Shown piece by piece: positions 7,103 to 11,614 of a DNA stretch of 22,556 nt. The stretch's first letter is position 1, and each line of letters starts with the position of its first letter. Under the pieces are notes generated by a model that was given only the letters and a program-made list of their open reading frames with translations, was not told where the DNA came from and did no database searches. The stretch comes from Nanohaloarchaea archaeon B1-Br10_U2g1 (GTDB lineage Archaea > Nanohalarchaeota > Nanosalinia > Nanosalinales > Nanosalinaceae), in assembly GCA_001563875.1 (NCBI GenBank), contig LKMN01000010.1, forward strand, positions 1 through 22,556. Reading direction: 5' to 3'. Made by a program: the position numbers and the translations under genes.

Positions 7103-7543
7103 ATGGATATAACAGAGGAGGTAATTAGGAGAAGAGAGACCTTGCCGGCTAAAGGAGACTCTGTATATCCGGAGATAAGAGATCTTATAGAGAGAAGGAT
7201 GGACTTCGACCATGTATCAGAGGAAAAGTACTACCATGATACGGAGAACGGAACAGTCCGGTCAGAACTGAAGGCGGAACAAGGATTCGATGAGCATACA
7301 GAGGCAGAGTACGATATATTTATCGTTGTGTCTGCATCAGGAGAAGTAGATATACAGGTTAAGGGCAAGCTTGTGACCGAGTACGAGTTCTCAGGTAATA
7401 GAGAGCCTATATGGCACTATGCGTATAGAGCTCTGTACGAGAAATTTATCTACGGCACCGTAAGACAGGGCTACGTTCCGGCGGTAGAGGAGAAAACCGA
7501 TGAGCTACTTACACGTCTAAGACAGAATATGGAGGTTTCCTAA
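7103..7543 (+). CDS. Hypothetical protein (paralog A of a three-gene array)
   Basis: 146-aa acidic ORF. Its stop overlaps the next start (TAATG), and its residue pattern is shared with the next two ORFs. Confidence 0.85.
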   Translation: MDITEEVIRRRETLPAKGDSVYPEIRDLIERRMDFDHVSEEKYYHDTENGTVRSELKAEQGFDEHTEAEYDIFIVVSASGEVDIQVKGKLVTEYEFSGNREPIWHYAYRALYEKFIYGTVRQGYVPAVEEKTDELLTRLRQNMEVS

Positions 7544-8163
7544 TGGTGAAGTTTGAGGAGTCTTCGTTCTCGAAGTCAGATGTCTTCTTTGTCAAAGAAG
7601 ATCCTGCAAGAATCTACAGAGGGCTGAAGGATCTGCTAGTCGACGAGTTCGATATGGACAGGATTGAGGAAGGCCATATGGAGTTCAGCGTGAATAAACC
7701 TAAAGATAAGATAAGGCTGTGGGCATTCAAAGAGAAAAGCCCTCATACAGTACTACGTTTCAAACTAGGTTTCAGAGTCAAAAAACCTAAAGATATATAC
7801 AAAGTTCAGAGACCTGAAGATATACTAAAAGCGCAGGTAGCTGTTGATGCTAAGGTTATAACTGTCTACCCTGGAGGAGAACCGATCTCATGGGTTCCGG
7901 AGCCGTTGATGGAAGACAATACTTCCACATGGGGCAAGACAGGGCTTAAAGCAGAGGAACGAACACGGTTCCAGAAATCGAAGTTCTATGAGATACTTGT
8001 AGGGATATGGTACAACAAATTTTACTCAAAAGAGATAAGCCGTTACGAAGAGGAGGCAGAGGAGATATCTCTACATATACATAATCTAATGCGTGAAAAG
8101 TTTGGAGTACAAAAATCTATACACCGTTCAGGTTCATCACAGTACAAACCTCCATGGAGCTGA
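7543..8163 (+). CDS. Hypothetical protein (paralog B)
   Basis: 206-aa ORF, translationally coupled to the upstream gene, with the same helix / beta-meander / aromatic helix layout. Confidence 0.85.
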   Translation: MVKFEESSFSKSDVFFVKEDPARIYRGLKDLLVDEFDMDRIEEGHMEFSVNKPKDKIRLWAFKEKSPHTVLRFKLGFRVKKPKDIYKVQRPEDILKAQVAVDAKVITVYPGGEPISWVPEPLMEDNTSTWGKTGLKAEERTRFQKSKFYEILVGIWYNKFYSKEISRYEEEAEEISLHIHNLMREKFGVQKSIHRSGSSQYKPPWS

Positions 8164-8171
8164 GATAAGAG

Positions 8172-8834
8172 ATGTCATCAGACAAAGAAGGAAACTGGCT
8201 TACAAACAAGGTTAAGTACTGGCTGGACTTCCCGGATCCAAGCACCGACCACCACGACAATATATGGCACCATTTCCATATCTTTGACGGTCACTGGATA
8301 AGAGTACAGAACAGGAAAGAATGGTATGAAAGCCCTAACGTGCCAGGGATATACAAAGACCATAAGTATATCTTTAAAGAAAACGTAGGGATAGGAAGGC
8401 CCGAGGAAACCTTTTACGCGCAGAACGTTGACAACGGAGATTTCAAATCAGTGATGGAGGCCTCAGAAGGTCTTCCAAGCGGTAGAGGAGACCTGAAAAT
8501 AACGACAACCATCAACACGAAGAGCCCTCCTTCAGGAGAGAACGACTTCGCCCTAGTTGAGTATGTCGTTGATACAGAGATAAAGTATGATTTACACAAG
8601 GGAATAACATTTCTTCCACGTATACTTGCAAGACCGTTAAACAGGTTCTTCAAATGGGCGTTCTTCAATATTCTAGGAGAAGAGATGGTGGACCGAGACG
8701 GAGAGTACGCAAGAGAAAGAACAACAGAGTACTTCCAGTATGTAAGAAAGTACCATGGTGAAGAGCCCACCCAGACACGGACTAGACAGGCCGAGTTCAA
8801 ACCGGTTCCTGAAGACGGAATATTCTTCCAGTAA
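8172..8834 (+). CDS. Hypothetical protein (paralog C, His/Trp-rich N-terminal extension)
   Basis: 220-aa ORF starting 8 nt after paralog B. Core aligns by eye with A and B. Confidence 0.85.
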   Translation: MSSDKEGNWLTNKVKYWLDFPDPSTDHHDNIWHHFHIFDGHWIRVQNRKEWYESPNVPGIYKDHKYIFKENVGIGRPEETFYAQNVDNGDFKSVMEASEGLPSGRGDLKITTTINTKSPPSGENDFALVEYVVDTEIKYDLHKGITFLPRILARPLNRFFKWAFFNILGEEMVDRDGEYARERTTEYFQYVRKYHGEEPTQTRTRQAEFKPVPEDGIFFQ

Positions 8835-8901
8835 ACGGTCGGTACAGTAAGACAGTTAAGGCTTGGGAAAGAAGTCATCATTGCGGGACTACTAAATTAT
8901 A

Positions 8902-8977
8902 TTGGCTGTCCTGCGTCAGCAAATGTGACCCTAAAAGGGACAGGGGATGATCATCTGTGTTACAGGACAGCCAAATA
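8902..8977 (+). ncRNA. Putative single-hairpin archaeal H/ACA guide sRNA (predicted target: 23S rRNA helix 69, U1915 in E. coli numbering)
   Basis: 12-bp lower stem TTGGCTGTCCTG/CAGGACAGCCAA, internal pocket (GUCA / GUUAC), upper stem GCAAAUG/CAUCUGU, K-turn GUGA...GAUGAUC and an ANA box (AAA/AUA at 8973-8977) 14-16 nt from the top of the pocket. Transcript ends are unknown. Confidence 0.75.
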
Positions 8978-8980
8978 CTA

Positions 8981-9232
8981 ATGACCCAGATATACGTCAA
9001 AGTAGAGCCAGACTCCAGGAAGTTCAGTATAGAAGAAGACGTCATTCCCAAGATAAAGCTGGAAGAAAGCCCTGAGAACGGAAGAGCGAACAGAGAACTT
9101 CTGAAAAGGCTGCAAAAAATTCTTGGAGCAAAACCTGGTATAATATCCGGACACAAGTCCCGCAGGAAAAAACTGGAAATACCTTTAGACGAAGACGAAA
9201 TAAGACAAAAAATGAGGGAATACGATGGGTAA
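8981..9232 (+). CDS. DUF167 (YggU/UPF0235) family protein
   Basis: IYVKVEPDS...ESPENGRANRELL...IISGHKSRRK matches the family pattern. ATG 8981 is preferred because GTG 8957 lies inside the RNA hairpin. Confidence 0.88.
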   Translation: MTQIYVKVEPDSRKFSIEEDVIPKIKLEESPENGRANRELLKRLQKILGAKPGIISGHKSRRKKLEIPLDEDEIRQKMREYDG

Positions 9233-10355
9233 AGTCGCGCAAAGCTCCGTAAAATATGTTATACAAGCAAAACTTGAGTCAGGAGGAGTTGTAGAAAAAC
9301 CTGATATAGTTGGAGCGGTATTTGGACAGACAGAAGGGCTTCTAGGAGAGGAACTGGACTTAAGAGAGCTTCAAGAACGTGGAAGAATAGGAAGGATAGA
9401 GGTTGATGTAAAAAAGAAAAACGGTAAATCACAAGCCTCTATAGAGATACCTACCTCACTAGATGCCACAGAAACTTGTTTACTAGCTGCTTCACTTGAA
9501 ACAATCGAAAGAGTCGGACCTACAACAGCAGAGATAAGTGTAGAAGAAGTTAAAGACCAGAGAACATCGAAAAGAGACTACATAGTTAAGAGAGCAAAAC
9601 AGCTGCTTGAAGATATTGAGACCGACAAACCAGAACATAGACAGATAACGAAAGAGATACGTGAAAAAGCCAGGAAATCAGAGCTAACAAATTACAGAGG
9701 CTTTAATGCAGGACCTGCCGCAGAAGACTCTGAAGAAGTTATAGTGGTAGAAGGCAGAGCTGATATAGTAAACCTATTGAAACACGGTGTTAAGAACACT
9801 ATAGCTCTGGGAGGCACATCAATACCTGACAAAGTATTTGAACTGGTACAGGATAAACAGATAACTTTATTCCTTGACGGTGATCGGGGAGGAGATCTTA
9901 TTCTAAAAGAGTTTACGGATAAACAGAAACCGGACTACGTAGCCAGAGCACCTAAAGATAAAGAGGTAGAAGACATAACTAAAGAACAGATCCATAAAGC
10001 TTTGAGAGACAAAGAGCCTGCAGACTACGTAAAGACAACTGAAGAAGATAAAAGACCTGAAGAGATTGAAGAACTAAACGAGAAACTTAACAATCTTGTA
10101 GGTACTAGAGCGGTCTACGTTCTTGATAAAAATCTTGAAACAGTAGATAGATTTCCTCTAAAGAAGTTTGAAGAAAATGTTAGAGACTTGGAGTCATGTT
10201 ACGCTGTCTTATTGGATGGAGAAGTTGATGGCGATAAGATTGATCTTTTAGAAGACATTACGGAGTATGTCTTAGGGATGAAGAAAACAGGCTACGTTAA
10301 CTCCAGCGAGACAGTAATTATGACGAGAGAAGAGTTAAAACCGCTGACAACTTAA
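9225..10355 (+). CDS. dnaG: Archaeal DnaG (TOPRIM; exosome-associated primase-like protein)
   Basis: N-terminal GVVEKPDIVGAVFGQTEGLLG...LRELQ...GRIGRI and TOPRIM motifs VVEGRAD and DGDRGG. Overlaps the end of DUF167. Confidence 0.96.
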   Translation: MGKVAQSSVKYVIQAKLESGGVVEKPDIVGAVFGQTEGLLGEELDLRELQERGRIGRIEVDVKKKNGKSQASIEIPTSLDATETCLLAASLETIERVGPTTAEISVEEVKDQRTSKRDYIVKRAKQLLEDIETDKPEHRQITKEIREKARKSELTNYRGFNAGPAAEDSEEVIVVEGRADIVNLLKHGVKNTIALGGTSIPDKVFELVQDKQITLFLDGDRGGDLILKEFTDKQKPDYVARAPKDKEVEDITKEQIHKALRDKEPADYVKTTEEDKRPEEIEELNEKLNNLVGTRAVYVLDKNLETVDRFPLKKFEENVRDLESCYAVLLDGEVDGDKIDLLEDITEYVLGMKKTGYVNSSETVIMTREELKPLTT

Positions 10356-11539: not shown

Positions 11540-11614
11540 AGCCCCGTCCGGGATTTGAACCCGGGACCTGCTCCTTACGAGGGAGCCGCTCTAGCCAGGC
11601 TGAGCCAACGAGGC
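11540..11614 (-). tRNA. tRNA-Thr (anticodon CGT), intronless, CCA not encoded
   Basis: Minus strand reads GCCTCGTTGGCTCAGCCTGGCTAGAGCGGCTCCCTCGTAAGGAGCAGGTCCCGGGTTCAAATCCCGGACGGGGC-T. Full cloverleaf, anticodon loop CTCGTAA, TTCAAAT T-loop, U discriminator followed by a T-run. Confidence 0.97.

What the first reader, a model, noticed from the sequence alone, without database searches (positions are those of the whole stretch)
8902..8977. Unannotated H/ACA guide RNA with a pocket complementary to 23S rRNA helix 69
Seen: a perfect 12-bp basal stem (8902-8913 / 8963-8974); an upper stem (8919-8925 / 8952-8958, one mismatch); a complete kink-turn (G-C, U-U, tandem sheared GA at 8927-8928 / 8949-8950, 3-nt bulge GAU, CCCU/AGGG stem); and an ANA triplet 14-16 nt from the pocket. 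The pocket strands GUUAC (8959-8963) and GUCA (8915-8918) specify a target 5'-GUAAC-U-N-UGAC-3'. Known: archaeal and eukaryotic helix 69 reads GUAACUAUGAC, the U after GUAAC is the pseudouridylated position 1915 (E. coli numbering), and archaeal H/ACA RNAs use an L7Ae-binding K-turn/K-loop of GUGA...AUGAUC type. Inference: a Cbf5 guide RNA retained in a reduced DPANN genome, with a non-canonical AAA/AUA box.
Basis: partly seen in the sequence, partly recalled or inferred. Interest (0 to 1): 0.85.

Follow-up and report, generated by a model that had tools for sequence, protein, structure and literature searches.

The report
H/ACA guide RNA for helix 69
This short hairpin is very probably a small guide RNA, conserved across a whole phylum of tiny salt-lake archaea, that directs an enzyme to convert one key uridine in the large ribosomal RNA into pseudouridine; it is an ordinary kind of RNA found in a group where it had not been described.

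Summary
The hairpin is at the stated coordinates on the + strand. It is a single-hairpin archaeal box H/ACA guide RNA.

- **Conservation:** a covariance model built from it finds one copy in 58 of 70 genomes of the phylum. Contig titles of model-confirmed copies read Nanohaloarchaea, Nanohalobium or Asbonarchaeaceae.
- **Structure:** 17 of 19 base pairs show compensatory changes. The two pocket strands (…GUCA and GUUAC) are almost invariant.
- **Family features:** a K-turn sits with its distal G·A at the 10th position of the upper stem. An ANA triplet lies 14-15 nt from the pocket in 45 of 52 copies.
- **Target:** the pocket matches 23S helix 69 (GGUAAC-UA-UGACCG) of relatives. The unpaired U corresponds to Haloferax Ψ1940. 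One relative's guide forms 12 bp there (0 of 300 shuffled pockets reach this).
- **Proteins:** Cbf5, Nop10 and L7Ae are encoded. Gar1 was not detected in any of the 70 genomes.

Caveats:
- This genome has no assembled 23S.
- Its own pocket gives only 8-9 bp, which is not significant alone (60 of 300 shuffles reach 9).
- No RNA data exist, so expression and modification are untested.

No Rfam family matches, and no paper on it was found in the searched library. The closest known guide is Haloferax sR-h45 stem-loop 2.

The parts
8904..8912 (+). Lower stem (P1), 5' strand GGCUGUCCU. This is the 9-bp core conserved in the family; in this genus it is extended to 8902-8913.
   Evidence: sequence. 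In some searches, 8 of the 9 lower-stem pairs have compensatory changes across 52 copies.
8913..8918 (+). 5' strand of the pseudouridylation pocket, GCGUCA. GUCA (8915-8918) would pair with UGAC 3' of the target UA. G8913 can instead pair with C8963.
   Evidence: In one search, GUCA ends this strand in 51 of 52 copies. Searches show complementarity to helix 69.
8919..8925 (+). Upper stem (P2), 5' strand GCAAAUG.
   Evidence: In one search, 6 of the 7 P2 pairs are compensatory. G-U at the P2 base occurs in 48 of 52 copies, which marks the + strand.
8926..8928 (+). K-turn, non-bulged strand UGA (U/U pair, then G/A and A/G sheared pairs).
   Evidence: In some searches, NGA is present in 47 of 52 copies.
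8929..8945 (+). K-turn C-stem CCCU / AGGG (8929-8932 with 8942-8945) and apical loop AAAAGGGAC (8933-8941).
   Evidence: In one search, all 3 modelled C-stem pairs are compensatory and 80% of cells are paired. In one search, GGGAC is in the apical part of 31 of 52 copies; this is unexplained.
8946..8951 (+). K-turn, bulged strand: 3-nt bulge GAU, then G8949 A8950 (sheared pairs), then U8951.
   Evidence: In some searches, UGA is present in 48 of 52 copies. The distal G/A pair is the 10th position from the P2 base; the rule of 9-10 is stated in PMC7075261.
8952..8958 (+). Upper stem (P2), 3' strand CAUCUGU.
8959..8963 (+). 3' strand of the pocket, GUUAC. It would pair with GUAAC 5' of the target U.
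   Evidence: In one search, GUUAC occurs in 46 of 52 copies, plus 3 with GUUACC. Searches show the target match.
8964..8972 (+). Lower stem (P1), 3' strand AGGACAGCC.
8973..8977 (+). ANA box region AAAUA. AAA (8973-8975) begins 14 nt after the P2 base. AUA (8975-8977) begins 16 nt after it.
   Evidence: In one search, the first A of ANA is 14 nt from the P2 base in 42 of 52 copies and 15 nt in 3. In one search, the first triplet after the stem is AAA in 30 copies, AUA in 10 and ACA in 5.
8981..9232 (+). DUF167 (YggU-family) gene. Its ATG lies 6 nt after the last base of the 12-bp stem (8974). It is the context of the guide, not part of it.
   Evidence: PF02594, 48 bits. In one search, a DUF167 gene follows on the same strand in 40 of 52 loci.
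9225..10355 (+). Archaeal DnaG gene (context).
   Evidence: NF003108, 408 bits against a cut-off of 300.

Best explanation
Window 8902-8977 (+ strand) encodes a single-hairpin archaeal box H/ACA guide RNA.

Inferred mechanism, by analogy with solved and reconstituted archaeal H/ACA particles:
- L7Ae binds the K-turn in the upper stem.
- Cbf5-Nop10 binds the lower stem and the ANA triplet.
- The two strands of the internal loop pair with 23S rRNA helix 69 on either side of an unpaired U-A (5'-GUAAC-[UA]-UGAC-3').
- Cbf5 isomerises that U. It is the equivalent of Haloferax volcanii U1940 (E. coli 1915 by my recollection).

Because the next U of the loop (the 1942 equivalent) is paired with the guide, this is a 'typical' one-site guide. 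Haloferax stem-loop 2 differs: it makes two pseudouridines from an unpaired UNUN.

Shown here: the structure, its covariation, invariance of the pocket, the spacing rules, complementarity to relatives' helix 69, and the presence of Cbf5, Nop10 and L7Ae.

Inferred only: expression, protein binding, and pseudouridine formation.
For: 1. **Anatomy.** It is as described and is the only locus in the genome that fits a strict H/ACA descriptor.

2. **A conserved family.**
- BLAST finds the hairpin in 17 of 41 relatives.
- Covariance model R1 was built from 16 copies. It finds it in 58 of 70 genomes of the phylum and 30 of 32 genera, with one copy in 57 of the 58. 42 of those 58 genomes were not in the seed alignment.

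3. **Covariation.**
- On 52 of the 59 matched places, 17 of 19 pairs have compensatory changes. 91.3% of cells are paired, against at most 45.2% when partners are slid. 0 of 500 shuffles reach the observed values.
- RNAalifold predicts the same helices on its own, with 16 of 18 pairs compensatory.
- The lower stem changes from GCUGCCC/GGGCAGC to GCCCGCC/GGCGGGC between families, while the pocket stays fixed.

4. **Pocket invariance.** GUCA ends the 5' strand in 51 of 52 copies. GUUAC is the 3' strand in 46 of 52.

5. **Spacing rules (figures quoted from passages of the papers).**
- ANA lies 14 nt (42 of 52) or 15 nt (3 of 52) from the P2 base. The published figures are 14-15 nt (PMC2377435) and 15 +/- 1 (PMC7075261).
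- The distal G/A pair is the 10th position of P2, against a published 9-10.

6. **Target.**
- Helix 69 reads GGCGGUAACUAUGACCGUC in 18 of 20 23S pieces from the phylum.
- The motif is unique in each of the 5 23S loci searched.
- For relative G017, the guide's best site in its own 16S and 23S is this U, with 12 Watson-Crick pairs. The next best site has 8 pairs including wobbles. 0 of 300 shuffled pockets reach 12.
- Measured against the consensus helix 69, 40 of 52 guides give at least 11 bp.

7. **Strand.**
- G-U at the P2 base occurs in 48 of 52 copies.
- Reverse-strand scores are about 18-21 bits, against 28-90 for the forward strand.

8. **Proteins.** Cbf5 with a PUA domain, Nop10 and L7Ae are in this genome. 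Cbf5 is over its cut-off in 64 of 70 genomes.

9. **Precedent.** The same uridine is guide-modified in Haloferax by sR-h45 SL2. An engineered 'perfect 1940 guide' of typical design made only Psi1940 (PMC7075261, passages).
Against: - The genome's own 23S rRNA is not assembled, nor is that of the only same-genus relative. The target sequence in this organism is therefore assumed from relatives.
- This copy is the weakest of the family at the pocket. Its 5' strand is GCGUCA instead of CGGUCA, so only 4 bp form on that side.
- G8913-C8963 can close the pocket by one more pair, leaving 8-9 bp in total. 60 of 300 shuffled pockets reach 9 bp somewhere in a relative's rRNAs.
- In this copy, A8973 and A8974 can pair with U8903 and U8902. 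That partly buries the AAA triplet and leaves AUA at a spacing of 16.
- Gar1 was not detected in 0 of 70 genomes. However, the same search also missed it in 1 of the 4 archaeal control genomes.
- Seven of 52 copies lack ANA within the first four tail positions.
- One genus has Cbf5 and the same helix 69 but no detectable guide in 0 of 4 genomes.
- No Rfam H/ACA family matches.
- The alignment used for one search was fitted to the model, which favours the structure. The seed alignment was not fitted and agrees: 11 of 19 pairs compensatory, 89.4% paired.
Confidence: 0.85

Rival explanations
1. It is a cis-acting K-turn leader. The hairpin would be part of the 5' untranslated region of the DUF167-dnaG mRNA, binding L7Ae (or another protein) to control translation. 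Archaeal L7Ae does this on its own mRNA leader.
For: - The DUF167 start codon lies 6 nt after the stem here. A DUF167 gene follows on the same strand in 40 of 52 loci, with its start from 6 nt before to 78 nt after the end of the model match. In many genomes this leaves little room for a separate promoter.
- A K-turn is present.
- L7Ae regulation through a leader K-turn is in print (PMC6298567, seen as listing and abstract only).
Against: - A regulatory K-turn does not need an invariant two-sided internal loop complementary to helix 69, a 9-bp lower stem, or an ANA triplet at exactly 14-15 nt.
- 25 of 52 copies have a run of four or more U within 26 nt after the stem, as expected for an archaeal terminator of a separate small RNA.
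- The two readings are not exclusive: a guide can be cut out of a leader.
Confidence: 0.07
2. It is a structured RNA or DNA element of another kind. Candidates are a terminator or stabiliser hairpin of the upstream gene, an RNA read from the minus strand, or a box C/D-like RNA. On this reading the match to helix 69 is coincidental.
For: - The minus strand folds even better in isolation (-35.1 kcal/mol, z = -5.5).
- The hairpin follows a conserved upstream ORF (present in 41 of 52 loci).
- No Rfam family is matched.
- For this single copy the pocket match is not significant.
Against: - G-U pairs, which would be C/A on the other strand, are conserved. The P2 base pair is G-U in 48 of 52 copies.
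- Reverse-strand model scores are about 18-21 bits against 28-90 forward.
- The unpaired pocket strands are the most conserved part of the element, which a terminator would not require.
- The match to helix 69 holds across families whose stems have diverged completely.
- No box C (RUGAUGA) with box D (CUGA) arrangement and its terminal stem is seen in the sequence (the box consensus is recalled).
Confidence: 0.05
3. It is a true H/ACA-type RNA, but its main substrate or role is something else. It could target another RNA (a tRNA or another rRNA site), or act as a chaperone of helix-69 folding without catalysis.
For: - Modification was not tested.
- Some copies pair with only 7-9 bp (8 of 52).
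- Gar1, which aids turnover (statement in PMC2377435), was not detected.
Against: - In a relative's 16S and 23S the helix-69 site is by far the best site: 12 bp against at most 8.
- That site is a known guide-dependent pseudouridine in Haloferax.
- tRNAs and mRNAs were not scanned.
Confidence: 0.03

Closest known systems
Haloferax volcanii sR-h45, 3' stem-loop (SL2) (PMC7075261; passages read)
   Same: - It is an archaeal H/ACA hairpin with a K-turn, a lower stem and an ANA/ACA tail.
- It guides Cbf5 to the helix-69 loop of 23S rRNA.
- The first U of the loop tetrad UAUG (Psi1940) is the same uridine that the pocket here presents.
- A single stem-loop suffices for function in Haloferax.
   Different: - sR-h45 has two stem-loops separated by a 56-nt linker. 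Its SL2 leaves UAUG (UNUN) unpaired, makes two pseudouridines (1940 and 1942), and needs ACA.
- The RNA here is a single hairpin. Only 67 nt lie between the upstream stop codon and the stem.
- Here the second U is paired to the guide, as in that paper's engineered 'perfect 1940 guide', which made only Psi1940.
- The tail here is mostly AAA or AUA.
- Sequence homology to sR-h45 was not tested, because I had no usable copy of its sequence.
Single-hairpin H/ACA sRNAs of Pyrococcus and other Euryarchaeota (Pab91, Pf9 and others; PMC2377435, passages)
   Same: The architecture and metrics match: a lower helix of at least 7 bp, an internal loop of 5-11 nt per strand, an upper helix with a K-turn or K-loop, an ANA triplet 14-15 nt from the target U, and rRNA targets with an unpaired UN.
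   Different: - The sequence and target differ, and no Rfam H/ACA family scores.
- Pyrococcus has seven such RNAs guiding many sites. Here only one candidate was found in the genome.
- Gar1 was not detected in this phylum.
Eukaryotic snR191 (yeast) and U19 (human) H/ACA snoRNAs (named in PMC7075261)
   Same: They guide the two conserved helix-69 pseudouridines equivalent to Haloferax 1940 and 1942.
   Different: They have the hairpin-hinge-hairpin-tail form, with one hairpin per site, no K-turn, and a four-protein particle that includes Gar1.

Membership tests
Archaeal box H/ACA guide sRNA | Lower helix of at least 7 bp closing an internal loop | tested here: met
   The family core is 9 bp (12 bp in this copy). 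8 of the 9 pairs are compensatory across 52 copies. The criterion is from PMC2377435.
Archaeal box H/ACA guide sRNA | Pseudouridylation pocket: two single strands, 5-11 nt each | tested here: met
   In the family, the 5' strand is at least 6 nt in all 52 copies (6 or 7 nt in 47). The 3' strand is 5 nt in 49 of 52 and 6 nt in the other 3. In this copy the strands are 6 and 5 nt, or 5 and 4 nt if G8913-C8963 forms, which puts it at the lower limit.
Archaeal box H/ACA guide sRNA | [quoted passage not shown] | tested here: met
   At sequence level, NGA is in 47 of 52 copies and UGA opposite in 48 of 52. The distal G/A pair is position 10 (the rule is). L7Ae binding itself was not tested.
Archaeal box H/ACA guide sRNA | ANA triplet after the lower stem, 14-15 nt (15 +/- 1) from the target U | tested here: met
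   The spacing is 14 nt in 42 of 52 copies and 15 nt in 3. It is absent from the first four tail positions in 7. In this copy AAA is at 14 nt, partly able to pair, and AUA is at 16 nt.
Archaeal box H/ACA guide sRNA | Two-sided complementarity to an rRNA site that leaves U and the next base unpaired | tested here: met
   This is met in relatives. G017 gives 12 bp at its own 23S helix 69 (0 of 300 shuffles reach it). 40 of 52 guides give at least 11 bp against the consensus helix 69. For this genome alone the result is inconclusive: no 23S is assembled, and its 9 bp is reached by 60 of 300 shuffles.
Archaeal box H/ACA guide sRNA | Partner proteins Cbf5, Nop10 and L7Ae are encoded | tested here: met
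   Cbf5 scores 351 bits against a cut-off of 242 and has a PUA domain. The Nop10 and L7Ae fragments have the right best families.
Archaeal box H/ACA guide sRNA | Fourth core protein Gar1 is encoded | tested here: not met
   PF04410 was found in 0 of 70 genomes of the phylum. The negative is weak: the search uses one Pfam model on six frames, and it rang in only 3 of the 4 archaeal control genomes. Gar1 defines the protein set, not the RNA.
Archaeal box H/ACA guide sRNA | Expressed as a small RNA, and the target U is pseudouridine dependent on it | not testable with these tools
   No RNA run is listed for this sequence.
Any Rfam H/ACA family (release 15) | Score at or above the family's gathering threshold | tested here: not met
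   There is no match at gathering scores in the window. With E up to 10 on 8780-9080, only chance-level hits to unrelated families appear. By that measure it is a new sequence family.
Haloferax sR-h45-type double-hairpin guide | Two stem-loops with a long linker, and helix-69 UNUN left unpaired so that two sites are made | tested here: not met
   It is a single hairpin. Only 67 nt lie between the upstream stop (8834) and the stem, and the DUF167 gene starts 6 nt after the stem. The guide's A8918 would pair with the second U of the loop.

The most novel reading that the evidence does not exclude
This may be the only H/ACA guide of the whole phylum Nanohaloarchaeota, and a natural 'typical' one-site helix-69 guide. 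Three further features would go with that:
- It works in a minimal Cbf5-Nop10-L7Ae particle that has lost Gar1.
- In many lineages, this one included, it is made from the 5' leader of the DUF167-dnaG messenger rather than from its own gene.
- That arrangement would tie a ribosome modification to expression of DnaG, which I recall as a subunit of the archaeal exosome.

It would then be the reason these reduced genomes keep Cbf5 and Nop10 at all.
Probability: 0.2. Interest if true: 0.6.

Novelty: new member of a known kind. Interest (0 to 1): 0.5.

Why it matters
- **New family in a new group.** It adds a well-supported H/ACA guide RNA family for a DPANN phylum in which none is described. That statement rests on the library I could search and on Rfam.
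- **A rationale for retained genes.** It gives one reason for the near-universal retention of Cbf5 in genomes of 0.5-1.7 Mb.
- **Helix 69 is kept.** The helix-69 pseudouridine, conserved from bacteria to humans according to PMC7075261, appears to be kept even in this reduced lineage.
- **Natural material for open questions.** The family offers a typical one-site counterpart to the atypical two-site Haloferax guide. It also offers ANA variants (AAA, AUA, ACA) and an apparently Gar1-less setting.
- **Annotation.** The covariance model can annotate the RNA in about four fifths of available genomes of the phylum.

Tried and rejected
- **Own target sequence.** The archaeal LSU and SSU models found no rRNA in this assembly, nor an LSU in the same-genus genome. 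I then laid contigs of four DNA runs that hold the window on a relative's helix-69 region. No variant at 5% or more is listed between L024 3437 and 3497. The stretch is covered by many organisms, so nothing can be assigned to this one.
- **Expression.** No RNA holder is listed.
- **Organism names.** The search for related loci with DnaG found nothing. The names came instead from a pattern scan. That scan gave 55 loci. All 26 with archaeal titles are hit by model R1, and none of the 29 with bacterial titles is.
- **Phylum-level search.** One search returned the same 70 genomes as the order-level search and added nothing.
- **Other guides in this genome.** The strict descriptor finds only this locus. 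A second scan gave 5 weak loci against 1 in a shuffled genome. None has an rRNA site of 9 bp. That scan demanded a perfect upper stem and so missed the true locus, which means its sensitivity is poor.
- **The genus without a guide.** At E up to 10, only hits of 10-12 bits appear. The best was inspected and lacks the pocket.
- **Promoter.** By eye, many relatives have a TTAA-type box upstream of the stem. A simple count gave 12 of 52 at -55 to -25, against 7 of 51 and 0 of 51 in control windows. This is too weak to claim.
- **Box C/D reading.** Rejected, because no C and D boxes with a terminal stem are present.
- **Minus-strand reading.** Rejected.
- **Not attempted.** A protein complex prediction was not attempted, because the partner in question is an RNA.
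- **Tools and supplements.** Supplementary files of the papers were not requested. Those of PMC7075261 and of Blaby et al. 2011 (not read) may list haloarchaeal homologues that bear on the comparison with sR-h45.
Full report
**1. The observation.**
- A perfect 12-bp stem: 8902-8913 with 8963-8974.
- An upper stem: 8919-8925 with 8952-8958. It has one A/C mismatch and a G-U at its base.
- A K-turn-like motif. Its closing pairs are G8925-C8952 and U8926/U8951. The sheared pairs are G8927/A8950 and A8928/G8949. The bulge is GAU at 8946-8948. The C-stem is CCCU paired with AGGG, 8929-8932 with 8942-8945.
- Pocket strands (C)GUCA at 8914-8918 and GUUAC at 8959-8963.
- A tail AAAUA at 8973-8977.

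The + strand folds better than all 200 shuffles (z = -3.6). The minus strand folds better still in isolation (z = -5.5), so folding energy cannot assign the strand.

A strict H/ACA descriptor was run over both strands of the whole 709,831-base assembly. It returned this locus and nothing else.

Rfam has no match at gathering scores. A permissive search of 8780-9080 gave only chance-level hits.

**2. Context.**
- The hairpin lies in a 146-nt spacer between an ORF of 220 codons with no Pfam or NCBIfam family (8172-8834) and a DUF167 gene. The ATG of DUF167 is at 8981, 6 nt after the stem. Archaeal dnaG follows at 9225-10355.
- The arrangement is conserved. A DUF167 gene follows on the same strand in 40 of 52 related loci. 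The upstream ORF is recognisable in 41 of 52.

**3. A conserved family.**
- BLAST of the spacer plus DUF167 against 41 relatives matched in 17. Several matches covered only the hairpin, at 78-96% identity.
- I aligned 16 copies. On that unfitted alignment 11 of 19 proposed pairs have compensatory changes and 89.4% of cells are paired. Slid controls reach at most 43.3%.
- A covariance model R1 built from the 16 copies matched 58 of 70 genomes of the order and 30 of 32 genera. There is one copy per genome, except for one genome with two.
- The phylum-level search returned the same 70 genomes. 42 of the 58 matching genomes were not in the seed.
- A pattern scan of 185,579 species genomes gave 55 loci. 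The 26 whose titles read Nanohaloarchaea, Nanohalarchaeota, Nanohalobium, Asbonarchaeum/Asbonarchaeaceae or 'uncultured archaeon/euryarchaeote' all score with R1. None of the 29 bacterial loci does.
- The window therefore comes from a nanohaloarchaeon. This fits its 0.71-Mb genome at 96.75% completeness and salt-lake metagenome runs that hold the sequence.

**4. Structure.**
- I aligned 52 of the 59 matched places to the model. Seven places in six genomes were not fetched.
- 17 of 19 pairs have compensatory changes and 91.3% of cells are paired. Slid controls reach at most 45.2%, and 0 of 500 shuffles reach the observed values. This alignment is fitted to the model, which favours it.
- RNAalifold run on the same alignment predicts the same helices on its own, with 16 of 18 pairs compensatory.
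- The lower stem is rewritten between families (GCUGCCC/GGGCAGC to GCCCGCC/GGCGGGC). The single-stranded pocket does not change. The 5' strand ends in GUCA in 51 of 52 copies (GGUCA in 44). The 3' strand is GUUAC in 46 of 52, plus 3 with GUUACC.
- The base pair of the upper stem is G-U in 48 of 52 copies. It would be C/A on the other strand. Reverse-strand model scores are about 18-21 bits, against 28-90 forward. The RNA is therefore read from the + strand.

**5. Fit to the H/ACA rules.**
- Passages of PMC2377435 give a lower helix of at least 7 bp, pocket strands of 5-11 nt, a K-turn or K-loop, an ANA triplet, and 14-15 nt between ANA and the target U.
- Passages of PMC7075261 give a spacing of 15 +/- 1. 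They place the distal G/A pair at 9-10 positions from the base of the upper stem.
- In this family the core lower stem is 9 bp.
- The first A of ANA lies 14 nt after the upper stem in 42 of 52 copies and 15 nt in 3.
- The first triplet after the stem is AAA in 30 copies, AUA in 10 and ACA in 5.
- The distal G/A pair is the 10th position.
- NGA is present in 47 of 52 copies and the opposite UGA in 48 of 52.
- AUA, AAA and AGA variants of the box are known (PMC7991803, passage).

**6. Target.**
- The assembly has no 23S or 16S.
- Five complete relatives have 23S genes. GTAACTNTGAC occurs exactly once in each of those loci, in the context GGCGGUAACUAUGACCGUCUUAAGGUAGCG, which is helix 69.
- Twenty helix-69 pieces came from the 19 genomes that have this part of the 23S. 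Eighteen have that sequence. One has GGCAGUAACUAUGACUGUC, which still pairs with its guide through a wobble. One has GGCGCUAACUAUGAGCGUC.
- The family's pocket (CGGUCA and GUUAC) pairs with UGACCG and GUAAC and leaves U-A unpaired.
- In G017 the guide's best site in its own 16S and 23S is this U, with 12 Watson-Crick pairs. The next best site has 8 pairs including wobbles. 0 of 300 shuffled pockets reach 12.
- Measured against the consensus helix 69, 40 of 52 guides give at least 11 bp.
- The unpaired U is the first U of the loop tetrad UAUG, which is U1940 of Haloferax volcanii (PMC7075261). That this equals E. coli 1915 is my recollection.

**7. This particular copy is the weakest of the family at the pocket.**
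- Its 5' strand reads GCGUCA, so only GUCA pairs. G8913 can pair with C8963. The total is 9 bp, or 8 if that pair persists.
- 60 of 300 shuffled pockets reach 9 bp somewhere. The family makes it so.
- The same-genus copy has UAGUCA. Whether helix 69 of this genus differs is unknown.
- Contigs of four DNA runs that hold the window show no variant of 5% or more in helix 69. They cannot be tied to this organism.

**8. Proteins.**
- Cbf5 is a 317-residue ORF. It scores 351 bits on NF003280 against a cut-off of 242. It carries DKCLD, TruB_N, TruB_C_2 and PUA domains.
- Nop10 is present.
- L7Ae is present.
- Cbf5 is over its cut-off in 64 of 70 genomes.
- Gar1 (PF04410) was found in none of the 70 genomes. 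The same search detected it in 3 of the 4 archaeal controls, so the negative is suggestive rather than firm.

**9. Mechanism.**
The best reading is a standard archaeal H/ACA particle.
- L7Ae binds the K-turn.
- Cbf5-Nop10 binds the lower stem and ANA.
- Helix 69 is unfolded and held in the pocket.
- The first loop U is isomerised.

Because the guide's A8918 pairs with the second U of the loop, the design matches the engineered 'perfect 1940 guide' of PMC7075261, which made only Psi1940. It does not match the natural Haloferax SL2, which leaves UAUG open and makes two pseudouridines. All of this paragraph is inference from known systems. No RNA data are available.

**10. How the RNA is made is open.**
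- Half of the copies (25 of 52) have a run of four or more U soon after the stem, as for a separate small transcript.
- This copy has none, and its tail runs into the DUF167 start codon. It may be co-transcribed with DUF167-dnaG and trimmed.
- A promoter could not be established.

**11. Comparison and novelty.**
- The closest known system is Haloferax sR-h45 SL2. It has the same site, the same protein machinery and a K-turn. It differs in being a double hairpin with a two-site UNUN mode.
- The single-hairpin guides of Pyrococcus share the architecture but not the sequence or target.
- No Rfam family matches.
- Searches of the held library returned no paper on such an RNA. The term sets were Cbf5 with DPANN, Nanohaloarchae with pseudouridine, archaeal H/ACA with guide RNA and DPANN, and Nanohaloarchae with box H, L7Ae and Nop10.
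- This is therefore a new sequence family and a new member of a well-known kind. The presence of Cbf5 already implied a guide, so a specialist would not be surprised.
- It is still worth annotating. It is also of some interest as a natural one-site helix-69 guide in a possibly Gar1-less lineage.

**12. Verdict.**
- Confidence that this is a Cbf5 guide for helix 69 is 0.85.
- Interest is 0.5.

Noticed in passing
Relatives: L028/L097 (G011:C1 about 1873-2170) and L095/L100 (G013:C2 about 43046-43787): In two relatives the 23S gene is interrupted. The break lies 12 nt after the UGAC that pairs with the guide's 5' pocket strand, after ...UGACUGUCUUAAGGU in G011. The inserts are about 296 nt and about 740 nt. 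They are probably rRNA introns.
   Followed up: partly
L072 (G013:C3:521547-521638) and L095 (G013 23S): In G013 the closing pair of the helix-69 loop is flipped (GCUAACUAUGAGC). Its guide is the most degenerate of the family: 30.6 bits, a 5' pocket strand ending CUACA, and no clear K-turn. This could be a decaying guide or a mixed bin, since the genome has 7% contamination.
   Followed up: partly
Whole phylum (70 genomes): Gar1 (PF04410) was not detected in any genome, although Cbf5 is nearly universal and Nop10 and L7Ae are present in this genome. The same search missed Gar1 in one archaeal control genome.
   Followed up: partly
Genus g23: G026, G029, G037, G043: None of the four genomes has a detectable copy of the guide, even at E up to 10. 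All four have Cbf5, and the two with a 23S have the same helix 69.
   Followed up: partly
Window 8933-8941 and the same place in relatives: The apical part above the K-turn holds a conserved GGGAC in 31 of 52 copies. In many copies it is preceded by AA (AAGGGAC). No explanation was found. A second group of copies has a longer apical stem, with two extra bases between the 5' GA and that stem.
   Followed up: partly
Window 7103-8834: Three consecutive + strand ORFs of 146, 206 and 220 codons lie here. The latter two have no Pfam or NCBIfam family; the first was not scanned. The last ORF ends in ...FFQ and is syntenic with the guide in 41 of 52 loci.
   Followed up: partly
Relatives L048, L039, L044, L033, L037, L053, L056 and L076, just upstream of the guide: In several genera a short, unrelated G+C-rich hairpin sits immediately 5' of the lower stem. 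It may be part of a leader or a terminator of the upstream gene.
   Followed up: no
G053: C45:2620-2715 and C12:12049-12144: This is the only genome with two copies of the guide (54.8 and 52.7 bits). The genome is 74% complete, so this may be a duplication or two strains in one bin.
   Followed up: no
Window 11540-11614 (-): tRNA-Thr (anticodon CGU). It is the only Rfam or ARAGORN hit in the window.
   Followed up: no
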